From Heptranchias perlo (lineage: Eukaryota), in contig NC_090354.1 in assembly GCF_035084215.1 (NCBI RefSeq), positions 12,152,001 to 12,216,000 of the forward strand: 64,000 nucleotides of DNA, in the 5' to 3' direction. Within the stretch, counting starts at the first letter, position 1. Each line of letters starts with the position of its first letter. The notes below the pieces were generated by a model. The model did no database searches and was not told the origin of the DNA. It was given only the letters and a program-made list of their open reading frames with translations. Positions 39,461 to 64,000 of this stretch are shown in pieces. Position numbers and translations under genes: made by a program.

Positions 39461-40322
39461 CTAGAACACACTGACTTGTCATTTCAGGATCAGACTTGAT
39501 GCCTGGTGCGACTTGCAATCTGAACTCCTGGTGTGCGGAAGAGACAGTGTTGATTGACTTTACACTTGATTCATGACTTCTGATATAGCTGCTTAGGAGT
39601 GGAGCTGTAAGGCATGTGACAGCTGTAACTGTCAGCACCCGTGGGTCGCACGGATCGAGAGAGGATCAGGAGTCAGAGGTGTGGCTGCTCTCTCTTCACA
39701 TCCCTGCGCATAAGTTCCAACTCAGAGGAAGCTGCCAGGAGAGAGTGGGGGGGGGTGGGAGATTGCTATTTCTAGTTCCGAGATCCTCAGCGCTATCTGT
39801 GTTCTCCGCATTTACCACAGTAGAATGACTGGACATCTAACATACCAAAGTGGCAATAACATTTTATTGTACGCCAATAAGGGTCCAAGAAACTTAAACA
39901 AATCAATATCAGATGATCAAAAAAAAGAAACATGCATCCTCCATAAGAGGAGTCAACACGCATTTGTGTATTTGGGGGGACACATATGATAGGAGAATGG
40001 GACATGGACACAGCTGAAGCTGAGGAGAGTTCCATGAGGAAACTGATATGGAAGGGTATGCCTTACTTTAAGCTGAGAATAGATAAGTCAGTTACAGAGA
40101 GGGAAAAAAACAGGCATTTTAACCAGTAACTCGGGCTTACAGCTGACAGGGAAAGTTGGAGGGACAATAATTACCAGGCAGTCAGCATTGTCAAGTGTGA
40201 CAATGCAATGCACACTGCTCCTCAGTCCTACCCACCCAATGTTGCAGGGCAATCAACGCCTAGAATTGAAAGCCCTTTAAGGCTCTTACGACATTCGACA
40301 GAGTTTCTCAGAAAATACTTAC

Positions 40323-40552
40323 CATTTAAAGATGAGGTTGAGCCAGTCTCCAATGACTGCCACCCAAATGAGTTTGACACCCACCACTTCACACAGGTGG
40401 AACCAGATGGGAAAGAAAACAAAAAAAGTGTTTCTCAGGTCCGCAGCAAAAGAGATAAAAGTGAACCAGCTCTGGGAGTCCTTGTAATTCAGCTGTAGAT
40501 ACTGCACCAGTTCTACCCCGGAGCTGTGGAGCAGGTCCATCCCAGCGTCCAT
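40323..40552 (-). CDS. G6PC1: G6PC1 copy A exon 1
   Basis: [13 protein letters not shown]...[18 protein letters not shown]...[12 protein letters not shown] (K76). 230 nt, donor GTAAGT. In-frame upstream ATG at 40561. Spliced total is 1074 nt = 357 aa. Confidence 0.95.
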
Positions 40553-40659
40553 TCTCTGCATGTTCAGAAACTGTCAAAGAGTCCAGCGAAGATGCCTGTC
40601 TCTCTTTGTTCTTCTCTTTGCCTCTTCTCAGTTTGTTGTCTGAAACTCTCTTCTATGGG

Positions 40660-40830
40660 TCAGTTATATACAACCACCAGCATAAACATGTGTGCAAAGA
40701 GTGATCTTTGGACTTGCAAACTTGACCCAAAGTCAGTGAACAATGTAACATTATTTCAAGCTGACGCAAGTGTGTTTAGAACATTCGCATTGAAAATGCC
40801 TTCGGTATCTGGCTTATTGATTCATCAAAT
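40660..40830 (-). promoter_or_regulatory. G6PC copy A promoter
   Basis: TATATAA 40664-40670; DR1/HNF4-type AGTCCAAAGATCA 40702-40714; CRE-like TGCGTCA 40762-40768; ONECUT-like AATCAATA 40815-40822. Same order as in the copy B promoter. Confidence 0.75.
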
Positions 40831-42559
40831 AATCTTTGGAATTGGACAATAAACAGCTGATTTTAGGTTTCTTCAGTTCAGCCAATTCAGTGCAATTGTT
40901 TTATTATATTTTTCTTTTCATCTTTATTAGACTTTGAAGTGACTAAAATCTCATTTTAATATTAACTACAAATGTGAAAGGCCCATACGGTTTGCAGTAG
41001 AGTATCTTGTAACTTCGTTATTAGCTTCTCTTGTGATCCTGGCCATAGCTCCATTGTTGCCAGAAGCAGCAGTTCAAACCTGAACCAGATAAATCAACGA
41101 GAAGAAGAATCGCTTTTTTGCGGTCACCACAGTTTCCAGTAACGAGGTTTCATTCTGCGGTGTTTACACTAGCCCTACAAATCTCAAAACTTAATCATTC
41201 TCCATTCTCTTCAGGTTTCACTGTGAGCAGGCACGTATTCTCTCTGGCTCTACATGGATTCTCAGTTTGGACATTTTTGGTTTTCTTTTTAATCCTGATC
41301 ATTTAATGTTTGATTTTGATTGAAGTGTATTTTTAAACAGCTCTATCTAAGATTAAAGATGCACATAACGGCCCCTCGGTGGCCTGACGTTCTCCCCCTC
41401 CAATTCTTTCTGGTCCGTTCCTGACTCAGGCAGGGTGAAGTCCCATAATTTCACAATGTGAGCCTAGATGGTGACACATACTTCCCAGCAAGTATCGTTA
41501 GATAATGACCAGGAATGGGAGCTTTGGCCAAATGTTCTCCTCCTTAGCTCAGGGATACTGAGACCAATAGTTACAAGCATTCTCCTGCCCCGATAAGAGA
41601 GCAGCTAAACACAGCCTGTCAAACCTGTGAACCCTTTAATCTGTAGGGCTGTGCATTTGCCAAATAAGCCATCATATGTCTCATATAAGAGATGTTTTTG
41701 TAATGAATTGGATAAGATGTCTATCTCATAACTATTAGAGATGTTTTACAGCTCTAATAACTCGAATTAACACTAAATAACAGGTTCCCCATTAGAAGTG
41801 AGTAGGATACATTTTCTATGGATGCTTATATAAGCTTGTGTTGGGGGTTAAATCTTGAAGATTTAGGAATAGGACTGTCCATGTGGCATGAAGAAGTGTT
41901 TAAATTTGGTGCTGCAATACTGACACTGTGCAGCAGGTGGCTCTTGACAGTCCATACAGATAGCCCCACAAATGAGGAACATGCAAAATAGGCAGGCTCA
42001 GCTGTGCAGTAAGGGTCTTCTGAAACTGCAGTGTTCCCACTCCTGATTACTGTTCAGTGGCCTCCTGCTGAAAGCAGTGTGTGTGGACAATAACCCTTAA
42101 TCTGCAAACTTGGAAATCAGGGGCACCCGGCTAAAAAAATCAGGGGCAAATGGTCAAAATCAGTGACACTTTCTTTAATTATGCAAAGCATTTTGAATAT
42201 TCAAATAATTTGACATTTTCTTTATCAGCAGATTAAAATATAAAATCTGTTGAAATGGGTGTTTTTAAAGTTGGGACCCAAAACAATTGAAATCGTCAAT
42301 CCTAACATTTTCTGGCTCAATTAAAAAAATAATAATACTTATATTCAGAGAGCTCCTTATGATGTGGAAATATCTCCAAGTGCCTCACACAATTAAGTAG
42401 TTTTCAAGTGTAGGGACTATGGGCAAACATAACAACATCCTTCAGGTAACCAACTAAACTGAGATGCTGTTTACCTGTGACTTCACCCCTCCCTAATTTT
42501 TCAACCTCCTCCAGGCCTACATCTCTGTCTGAATCCACCACCCTTCTAACAAAAGAATA

Positions 42560-62602: not shown

Positions 62603-62800
62603 GTTTTTCACAAGAGTTGGCCTTGTGGATCTGCTCATGCGTTGGGATTGCGGCTTGAATCACAGCAATGACGCAGGTGTTGTTGCCAAAAAGGCCGTTG
62701 ACCTTATTTTGCCCAGGTTTGCTCAAAGTCTTGTGATCATTGGCTGCAAACGGAATTGATTACAAAATAGAAAAACATGCTCATCTCCTATATAAATCCT
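62603..62800 (+). promoter_or_regulatory. G6PC copy C promoter
   Basis: CRE-like TGACGCA 62669-62675; HNF4-like GCTCAAAGTCT near 62721; TATATAAA 62789-62796. Confidence 0.65.
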
Positions 62801-62874
62801 AAATCCCCAAGAGCAAAACCAGAAACCGAACTGAAAGCCGAGAAAACCTTCAGCACCCTCTGAACGTGCAGAGA

Positions 62875-63104
62875 ATGGACGCTGGGATGGACCTACTCCA
62901 CAGCTCCGGGGTAGAACTGGTGCAGTATCTACAGCTGAATTACAAGGACTCCCAGAGCTGGTTCACTTTTATCTCTTTTGCTGCGGACCTGAGAAACACT
63001 TTTTTTGTTTTCTTTCCCATCTGGTTCCACCTGTGTGAAGTGGTGGGTGTCAAACTCATTTGGGTGGCAGTCATTGGAGACTGGCTCAACCTCATCTTTA
63101 AATG
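62875..63104 (+). CDS. G6PC1: G6PC1 copy C exon 1 (gene presumably continues beyond the window)
   Basis: MDAGMDLLH...LNLIFKW. 230 nt, donor GTAAGT at 63105. The peptide is identical to copy A exon 1. Confidence 0.88.
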
Positions 63105-64000
63105 GTAAGTATTTTCTGAGAAGTTCCTTGGAGTGTTATTAAAGATCTCATTTAGAGCAATGGAATAGACTTTAATACATGACAGATTGCAGACTGGGAC
63201 TATTGTAAATATAATTGCTTTAAGTTCTAAGACCTGGGCACTTGTGACTGAGGACAAATAAATTCTTTTTTTTATTTCAATCTTAGTTTTAGAAAATGCT
63301 AAACGTTTATAACTTAAAATATTTTAATGGCATCTTTTTCTTTTGTCTTGGTCTGTCTATAGCCCACTTTACCCTGTGCTAAGGGGTAGGCAGACAACTG
63401 ACCTCTAGATAACTGGCGGTGTTGCTCTATATCTTGCTGCCAGGGGGTCAGGGGTGGGAATAGAGAACCAACTCTGACTTTCCTGAAGAAAGTGCTTGGC
63501 CTTTACGACCTCTGTGAGGCACCTTCCCTGATGGCACGCTAAGATTCAGAACATATTTTATGGAAATTTGCAGCTGCAGAAAAGAACTCATCAGTCCATA
63601 CACAGCATATTGGAGCTCTGTCACTCTGTCACTCTGCACCATCTGAGAATCAATTATATTTGTAAATATTGTAGTAAATATTCTTCCATTTTTAATTTAT
63701 GAAGATATTAAGATAAATTATAGATAATATTAAAATTATAAACCTTTCTTTGAACTTATATCTATACGTTTTTTTCTTGGTCTTTTCTCTGGTTCATAAA
63801 TCTTTTTAAGTCTAATATTTATGTCTTATTGTTCATTTTTTAACATTTGGACTTTTTTTGAGGAAACAAATTATTACTTGAGAGCAGCTTCAGGTGTTTA
63901 TGTGTCAGTTCACATTTCATGGTGTTTGGACAGCATCCAAAGCAGACAAGCTCAAAAGAATTCTAATCTGATCTTACTCCTGGTTGAGAAGAGTGTTTTG

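What the first reader, a model, noticed from the sequence alone, without database searches (positions are those of the whole stretch)
40305..63122. 264-bp near-perfect inverted repeat 22 kb apart: exon 1 of A equals exon 1 of C, yet A's promoter is B-type
Seen: 40305-40568 and 62859-63122 differ at only 2 positions by eye, including 16 nt of 5' UTR and 18 nt of intron, and similarity ends abruptly on both sides. A versus B exon 1 differs at about 9 positions, but the A and B promoters are homologous and C's is not. Inference: recent conversion between inverted paralogues makes A a mosaic (B-like promoter, C-like exon 1, B-like exons 2-3). A crossover in this repeat would invert 22 kb and swap promoters between the A and C gene bodies.
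Basis: partly seen in the sequence, partly recalled or inferred. Interest (0 to 1): 0.7.

Follow-up and report, generated by a model that had tools for sequence, protein, structure and literature searches.

The report
Exon-swapping shark glucose-6-phosphatase gene trio
The 264-base repeat is the near-identical first exon of two of three shark glucose-6-phosphatase genes, which have likely been overwriting each other's long exons by gene conversion since before sharks and rays split while their middle exons stayed distinct, a known process that here hides an old, separate enzyme copy.

Summary
In detail: 264 bp with 2 differences, and a 227-bp identical run. It is exon 1 of two inverted g6pc1-like genes (A, C) in a shark cluster aoc–A–B–C. 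Contigs from raw DNA runs of one sample break exactly where the assembly's differences predict, and exon 1 depth is about three times single copy, so a polishing artefact is unlikely.

Across shark and ray proteins, exons 2–4 of C form a clade spanning sharks and a ray (support 100/99). The exon 5 body groups by lineage instead (C clade rejected, AU p=0.00016). Exon 1 shows no paralogue-type site in 7 of 7 quartets, though its own tree is unresolved. All three genes are mosaics from recurrent, exon-restricted concerted evolution. The direction and date of the last exon 1 tract are unresolved.

An inversion is geometrically possible but unsupported: the AB-type promoter sits on an AB-type body. 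The closest parallel is vasotocin/oxytocin exon 2. This is a new case of a known kind.

The parts
40305..40568 (-). Shared 264-bp block, copy in gene A (16 nt 5' UTR, exon 1, 18 nt intron 1); identical run 40305-40531
   Evidence: contig breaks
62859..63122 (+). Shared 264-bp block, copy in gene C
40323..40552 (-). g6pc1-like A coding exon 1 (230 nt); upstream in-frame ATG at 40561
   Evidence: an RNA-run contig covers 40322-40631 with 0 differences
38101..38210 (-). A exon 2 (110 nt)
   Evidence: splice joints
37981..38100 (-). A intron 2 (120 nt), 7 differences from B intron 2
37875..37980 (-). A exon 3 (106 nt)
36739..36854 (-). A exon 4 (116 nt)
35479..35990 (-). A exon 5 coding part (512 nt); the body is shared by three copies
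   Evidence: depth 20-26; one contig at depth 18.7
40569..41000 (-). A promoter and 5' UTR, homologous to B's; TATA-like box at 40670
56054..56283 (-). g6pc1-like B coding exon 1
53698..54033 (-). B exon 2 (54033-53924), intron 2, exon 3 (53803-53698)
51061..51176 (-). B exon 4
47048..47559 (-). B exon 5 coding part; 8 differences from A in the first 382 nt, 29 in the last 130 nt (B-type tail)
56300..56700 (-). B promoter; TATA-like box at 56386
62875..63104 (+). g6pc1-like C coding exon 1; the rest of the gene lies beyond the window, inferred to be the P0002-type gene
   Evidence: P0002 exon 1 identical; C-type RNA-run contig joined to exon 1
62358..62858 (+). C promoter, not homologous to A or B; TATA-like box at 62789
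60536..60712 (+). Diverged (72%) direct duplicate of the C promoter segment 62602-62777, with no exon 1 relic after it
3704..21065 (+). Neighbouring copper amine oxidase (AOC-like) gene, a synteny marker
   Evidence: PF01179, PF02727, PF02728

Best explanation
The repeat is exon 1 of two oppositely oriented glucose-6-phosphatase (g6pc1-like) genes, likely kept near-identical by recurrent short-tract gene conversion among three old paralogues. Shown: three exon 1 copies, two complete five-exon genes in the window, non-homologous introns, and a third, C-type spliced contig in an RNA-type run of the same sample. Shown on stored proteins: C-type exons 2-4 are shared by sharks and a ray, and the B-type tail by five shark rows, while the exon 5 body groups by lineage and exon 1 carries lineage-type but no paralogue-type sites. 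Inferred mechanism: a double-strand break in one copy is repaired on a neighbour 6-22 kb away. Strand invasion succeeds only in long, still-similar blocks (exon 1 at 230-264 nt, the exon 5 body at about 380 nt, and for A/B the 352-nt exon 2-intron 2-exon 3 block) and stops a few to about 34 bases into the diverged flanks. Short exons with fast-evolving loops fell below the similarity needed and escaped. Resolution is inferred to be non-crossover, so each promoter stays on its own gene core. Why C's core escaped: loss of homology is my first choice (about 55%), selection for C-specific residues second (about 35%); they are not exclusive.
For: (1) Partition trees, 18-19 rows. In exons 2-4, the C-type rows (P0002, Rhincodon P0011, Hypanus P0017) form a clade at 100/99, and a window-lineage clade is rejected (AU p=0.013). 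In the exon 5 body, the C clade is rejected (AU p=0.00016) and A, B and P0002 group together (84/81, not starred). (2) Quartet B, P0002, Rhincodon B-type, Rhincodon C-type: exon 1 plus exon 5 body give 17 by-lineage and 0 by-paralogue sites; exons 2-3 give 0 and 5 (Fisher p=4e-5; partitions chosen after seeing the alignment). All 7 quartets have 0 by-paralogue sites in exon 1 and in the exon 5 body; they share rows and are not independent. (3) Residues found only in different paralogues of one lineage: V56, V296, T349 (A and C); I190, D199 (carpet sharks); L194, K199, R207, T311 (Pristiophorus); L62, R289 (Scyliorhinus). (4) Identity spills into non-coding flanks: 18 nt intron and 16 nt UTR for A-C, about 34 nt of intron 4 and all of intron 2 for A-B. 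(5) The C-type RNA-run contig differs from A at 7 of 381 nt in the exon 5 body and 14 of 118 in exon 4, and C-type contigs carry the P0002-specific changes at codons 125, 238, 301 and 332. (6) PMC3924818 gives a minimal efficient segment of about 200 bp in yeast and tracts of 50 to several hundred bp (passages).
Against: The exon 1 protein tree alone is uninformative: neither the C clade (p=0.21) nor the lineage clade (p=0.18) is rejected. No residue is unique to all three window-lineage proteins. No DNA from other sharks was available, so synonymous sites across species were not tested. A strict length threshold does not fit everywhere: B and C share the 3' part of the 116-nt exon 4 (by-lineage sites 164, 168, 175; 6 of 6 listed letters equal B), and in turtle pairs the 230-nt exon 1 is paralogue-specific (5 sites by paralogue, 0 by lineage). 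GC3 is only suggestive (exon 1 0.64, exon 5 0.60, exons 2 and 4 of A 0.46, AOC exon 0.42). Some foreign gene models are chimeric (P0001 is a read-through; the Pristiophorus rows are named as isoforms). That C's exon 1 belongs to the P0002 gene is inferred. Non-reciprocity was not shown.
Confidence: 0.82

Rival explanations
1. Reciprocal exchange: crossovers in the inverted exon 1 (or exon 5) repeats flip the intervening DNA and swap promoters or tails, now or in the past.
For: The arms are inverted, 22,290 nt apart, with 227 identical bases, near the ~200-bp efficient minimum. Rhincodon P0011 has a C-type core with an A-like tail (1/27 aa from A-type P0010), which a crossover in exon 5 could give.
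Against: A and B promoters are homologous and sit on A/B-type cores, which is the un-swapped state. Homogenisation of separate internal blocks among three genes, two of them on the same strand, needs double events that single crossovers do not give. P0011's tail is equally explained by conversion: A and C tails group by lineage.
Confidence: 0.07
2. [quoted passage not shown]
For: Exon 1 is highly conserved among chondrichthyans (87-100% aa). PMC2656470 makes this argument for a look-alike case (97.1% identity, running 14 and 6 bp into introns; passages).
Against: It cannot explain lineage-specific residues shared by different paralogues, the 18 intron bases shared by A and C but not B, or 5 synonymous A-B differences against 1 for A-C.
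Confidence: 0.04
3. Birth and death: C, or just its exon 1, is a young inverted duplicate of A that landed beside an unrelated promoter.
For: The edges are sharp, and only exon 1 of C is in the window.
Against: A C-type spliced contig is present in an RNA-type run and joined to exon 1. C-type exons 2-4 exist in whale shark and a stingray, with 7 residues found in all 3 C-type rows and none of the others. A shark-batoid split of about 270 Mya is given in PMC13023373.
Confidence: 0.04
4. Assembly collapse or polishing artefact.
For: The runs laid are from one sample that may be the assembly's source, and 49 rows of the variant table were hidden, with no exon 1 row among those shown.
Against: Contigs of both DNA runs break at 40334, and at 40516 or 40531, as the assembled differences predict. 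Depth is about three times single copy. The same 31-mer logic predicts the break at 35529, seen in 3 of 4 runs, from the A/P0002 difference at codon 352 (position 35499; worked by hand).
Confidence: 0.02

Closest known systems
Vasopressin/vasotocin-oxytocin exon 2 identity (bovine conversion hypothesis; elephant shark and coelacanth cases; PMC2656470, passages read)
   Same: One ~200-nt exon is nearly identical between two linked, anciently diverged paralogues. The identity runs a few bases into the introns, and the mammalian genes are inverted.
   Different: Here there are three genes and two or three separate homogenised blocks. Shared derived residues favour conversion over the nucleotide-level selection those authors preferred for shark and coelacanth.
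Concerted evolution of tandem clusters: Lefty1/Lefty2 (PMC12344233, passages) and shark alpha/beta-globins (PMC13023373, passages)
   Same: Paralogues group by species, and conversion masks an old duplication.
   Different: In the passages read those are whole-gene patterns, and for globins turnover was left open. Here unconverted exons keep the old paralogue signal, which excludes simple turnover.
Vertebrate G6PC1 duplicates (g6pca/g6pcb; PMC5414149, passages)
   Same: Same enzyme family, with two g6pc-related genes reported in elephant shark.
   Different: That paper's main text has no occurrence of 'tandem' or 'conversion' and left the truncated shark sequences out of its tree. The linked trio here is not described in the passages seen.
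Recurrent inversions by non-allelic recombination between inverted repeats (recalled class)
   Same: Inverted, near-identical arms flank a gene-containing segment.
   Different: The arms are only 264 bp (such repeats are typically kilobases; recalled), and no second orientation was seen.

Membership tests
[quoted passage not shown] | Closest named relatives are G6PC1-like; colinear with solved human G6PC1 | tested here: met
   The 17 best hits are chondrichthyan G6PC1-like. P0002 aligns 1-357 without gaps to PDB 9jtl, E 8e-165.
[quoted passage not shown] | Catalytic residues K76, R83, H119, R170, H176 (numbers recalled) | tested here: met
   Present in A, B, P0002 and all 19 rows.
[quoted passage not shown] | Five coding exons of 230/110/106/116/512 nt (human sizes recalled), intact frame | tested here: met
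   A and B, each 357 aa with GT-AG introns. For C only exon 1 is in the window.
[quoted passage not shown] | PAP2 domain (PF01569) | tested here: inconclusive
   Single exons 1 and 5 gave no Pfam hit. PF01569 is precomputed for the full-length relatives, including P0002.
[quoted passage not shown] | Glucose-6-phosphate hydrolysis | not testable with these tools
   Needs an assay.
Interlocus gene conversion / concerted evolution | Patchy near-identity bounded by diverged flanks | tested here: met
Interlocus gene conversion / concerted evolution | Tree incongruence between gene parts | tested here: met
   Exon 5 body vs exons 2-4, AU p=0.00016 and 0.013.
Interlocus gene conversion / concerted evolution | Exon 1 itself groups by lineage | tested here: inconclusive
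   0 by-paralogue sites and 0-3 by-lineage sites in 7 quartets, but the AU tests are not significant.
Interlocus gene conversion / concerted evolution | Derived changes shared by paralogues within a lineage | tested here: met
Interlocus gene conversion / concerted evolution | Raised GC3 in converted parts | tested here: inconclusive
   Exons 1 and 5 are 0.59-0.64, exons 2 and 4 are 0.43-0.56, although exon 2 is shared by A and B.
Interlocus gene conversion / concerted evolution | Non-reciprocal transfer | not testable with these tools
   Needs pedigrees, sperm typing or population haplotypes.
Recurrent inversion between inverted repeats | Inverted arms with at least ~200 identical bases | tested here: met
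   227 identical bases, borderline.
Recurrent inversion between inverted repeats | Both orientations present in reads or populations | not testable with these tools
   Only short-word contigs of one sample were available; they break at the repeat.
Recurrent inversion between inverted repeats | Swapped promoter-core linkage in this assembly | tested here: not met
   The AB-type promoter lies on an AB-type core in both A and B.

The most novel reading that the evidence does not exclude
The homogenised exon 1 (and exon 5) copies act as built-in recombination arms that keep the cluster invertible. Some sharks, or some shark lineages, would then carry the 22-kb segment flipped, with the A/B-type promoter driving the distinct C-type enzyme: a heritable promoter switch for glucose output that has been maintained for over 270 million years.
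Probability: 0.04. Interest if true: 0.75.

Novelty: new member of a known kind. Interest (0 to 1): 0.38.

Why it matters
First, whole-protein trees of shark G6PC1 will be misled. More than half the protein follows the species, which hides three old paralogues, of which the C type is shared with a ray. C has its own promoter and 7 residues diagnostic across all three C-type rows (in exons 2-4), so it is a candidate specialised enzyme. Expression assays aimed at exon 1 or exon 5 would pool the copies; the catshark gluconeogenesis preprint treats g6pc1 as one target in the passages read. Second, the locus is a clean natural test of what ends concerted evolution (block length and similarity versus selection). 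It also bears on the conversion-versus-selection question raised for vasotocin/oxytocin exon 2 in cartilaginous fish, because here shared derived residues can decide it. The mechanism itself is textbook.

Tried and rejected
No whole genome is held for this window, so the rest of gene C could not be read. Cluster members of the shark proteins could not be listed, so each 90% cluster is represented by one protein and many species' paralogues are unseen.

The run search listed no holder on record as RNA; X5-X7 are guessed RNA. X6's contigs are spliced at all four introns, but contig depth cannot rank the genes and was not used to do so. Contigs cannot phase promoter to core across the 227-bp identical run, so the inversion was not testable.

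A search for further exon copies or a relic exon 1 behind the duplicated C-promoter segment found none. Pfam on single exons gave no hit. Exon 1 protein trees were unresolved.

Dating with the epaulette-shark pedigree rate (7e-10 per generation; PMC10587355, abstract and passages) gives roughly 2-65 million generations for 0.3-9% divergence, which is too wide to use; no date is claimed.

Rows dropped: P0005 from all trees and the diagnostic counts (same as P0004 outside exon 3), and the N-terminal half of P0001 from the exon 5 partitions. P0157 and P0160 look like a different G6PC subfamily and were ignored.

Earlier-findings look-ups returned nothing. Paper searches found no description of this cluster or of conversion in G6PC1. 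The library lacks most subscription papers, and the supplementary tree of preprint 10.64898/2026.05.24.727455 (49 gnathostomes; supplement not seen) may include these paralogues.
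Full report
OBSERVATION. The two stretches are reverse complements with 2 differences in 264 bases, leaving 227 identical bases. The block is 16 nt of 5' UTR, a 230-nt coding exon and 18 nt of intron; matches drop to chance beyond both ends. A third copy (B, 56054-56283) differs from A at 9 of 230 coding positions. The A and B promoters are homologous (score 136, shuffle maximum 50), while C's matches neither.

IDENTITY OF THE LOCUS. Exon 1 finds chondrichthyan G6PC1-like proteins as its 17 best hits, one of them (P0002, Heptranchias perlo) 100% identical. 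A and B are complete five-exon genes of 357 codons on the minus strand. C starts on the plus strand, head-to-head with B, and runs out of the window. A copper amine oxidase gene lies upstream; that human G6PC1 lies beside AOC genes is recalled. P0002 aligns without gaps to solved human G6PC1. The recalled catalytic residues are intact in all 19 rows. The organism is inferred to be H. perlo or a close relative.

IS IT REAL? Four contig sets from one sample, possibly the assembly's source, were laid on gene A. In both DNA runs the unique intron 1 contig ends at 40334, which is 30 bases into the block. That is what a 31-mer graph gives if another copy shares sequence from 40305; B alone would give 40346. 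Promoter-side contigs begin at 40516 and 40531, as the assembled differences at 40532/40546 and 40561 predict. Depth over exon 1 (20, 27.9) and the exon 5 body (20-26) is about three times the unique flanks (5-8). A collapse or polishing artefact is therefore unlikely. Against full certainty: there is one sample only, and 49 variant rows were not shown, with no exon 1 row among those shown.

THE THIRD GENE. P0002 equals A in exon 1 (0/76 aa), is close in the exon 5 body (5/142), and differs in exons 2-4 (24/110). Run X6 holds a 743-nt spliced contig joined to exon 1. Its unplaced letters translate to P0002's FGLKKKQSCFQK (by eye), and it differs from A at 14 of 118 nt in exon 4 and 7 of 381 in the exon 5 body. 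Letters in the C-type contigs that B lacks fall at codons where P0002 is unique (125, 238, 301, 332). With three exon 1 copies and three gene types, C is inferred to be the P0002 gene. This was not read directly.

THE PATTERN ACROSS SHARKS AND RAYS. Sixteen stored chondrichthyan proteins, the two halves of a read-through model, and A and B were compared by exon. In exons 2-4, P0002, whale shark P0011 and stingray P0017 form a clade (100/99), with 7 residues found in all three and in none of the other rows; a window-lineage clade is rejected (p=0.013). Five shark rows share a B-type tail with 4 diagnostic residues. In the exon 5 body the C clade is rejected (p=0.00016) and paralogues sit with their own lineage. 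In 7 overlapping quartets, exon 1 and the exon 5 body have no by-paralogue site (exon 5 body 7-17 by-lineage sites, exon 1 0-3). Exon 1 alone is too conserved for a tree (p=0.21 and 0.18). Val56 occurs in A and C only, against Ala in the other 18 of 20 rows. The shark-batoid split is put at about 270 Mya (PMC13023373, passage), so C is at least that old while its exons 1 and 5 have been reset within lineages. Caveats: one representative per 90% cluster, some chimeric gene models, and no foreign DNA.

MECHANISM. Recurrent interlocus gene conversion fits all of this (0.82). Tracts are confined to long similar blocks: exon 1, the exon 5 body (with about 34 nt of intron 4 for A-B), and for A-B the 352-nt block that includes the 120-nt intron 2 (7 differences). 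The other introns and the 3' UTR are unalignable, apart from the end of intron 4. A minimal efficient length near 200 bp and tracts of 50 to several hundred bases are reported (PMC3924818, passages). Two facts argue against a strict length rule: B and C share the 3' part of exon 4, and turtle G6PC1 pairs keep a paralogue-specific exon 1. Selection for C-specific residues may therefore help protect C's core. These steps are inferred.

Conversion: yes. A as the mosaic with a C-derived exon 1: not shown, because A-B divergence in exon 1 (3.9%) equals that in exons 2-3 (4.0%), all three genes are mosaics, and direction needs orthologous flanks. Recent: only relative, at 2.5% near-neutral divergence (0.3-9%). 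Inversion: a crossover would indeed flip 40569-62858 and swap promoters, but the assembly shows the un-swapped linkage, the arms are at the lower limit for efficient recombination, and the data at hand cannot phase across the repeat. The exon 5 copies are longer inverted repeats than exon 1.

KNOWN PARALLELS AND NOVELTY. The closest is vasotocin/oxytocin exon 2 (PMC2656470, passages), where a near-identical exon with a few intron bases was read as conversion in cattle and as selection in elephant shark. Lefty and the shark globins show species-wise grouping of whole genes (passages). The G6PC evolution paper PMC5414149 (passages) reports two truncated elephant-shark sequences, and its main text does not mention tandem copies or conversion. 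Searches found no account of this cluster. Two preprints and one on G6PC1 variants were seen as passages only, without supplements.

VERDICT. The feature is real, the mechanism is known, and the case is new and well resolved. Interest 0.38. The invertible promoter switch remains possible at about 4%.

Noticed in passing
window 60536-60712 vs 62602-62777: A 72%-identical direct duplicate of the C promoter's proximal segment lies 2 kb upstream. It keeps the TGACG-containing stretch but lacks the TATA-like box and any exon 1 relic; it may be a duplicated enhancer or a remnant of a lost copy.
   Followed up: partly
proteins P0042/P0092, P0053/P0074, P0045/P0059, P0060/P0142: Turtle and gharial G6PC1 pairs are much closer in the exon 5 body (5-8% aa) than in exons 1, 3, 4 and the tail (14-52%), with mostly by-lineage sites in the exon 5 body. 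The same exon 5 homogenisation may recur in reptiles. The Microcaecilia/Geotrypetes caecilian pairs group by paralogue throughout.
   Followed up: partly
window 40559-40561, 62866-62868 and the matching site in B: An in-frame upstream start (ATG in A, GTG in C, GTG followed by a stop in B) would add three residues in A. Several other shark models begin at this upstream site, and in P0016 the usual first Met is Leu.
   Followed up: partly
proteins P0001, P0004, P0005, P0007: Database gene models look confused by the homogenised exons: a 563-aa read-through of two paralogues in Stegostoma, and Pristiophorus 'isoforms' with three unrelated exon 3 ends.
   Followed up: no
window 26000-28500 and 47680-48790: Repeats with nested inverted arms (96-99% complementary) next to an ORF with a weak GIY-YIG match (E 0.0009, below cut-off); Penelope-like by recall.
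   Followed up: no
window 43347-43541 and 26036-26218: Near-perfect palindromes (95% and 98% arms, with 1 and 9 nt spacers).
   Followed up: no
window 6872-7849: A C-rich 21-bp tandem array inside an intron of the amine oxidase gene.
   Followed up: no
window 12022-13101, 29157-30235, 49628-50530: Reverse-transcriptase-like LINE fragments (CR1-like by recall), 80-87% alike, in both orientations. The pair at 29181-29962 and 49698-50456 is a 790-bp inverted repeat at 79% flanking gene A.
   Followed up: no
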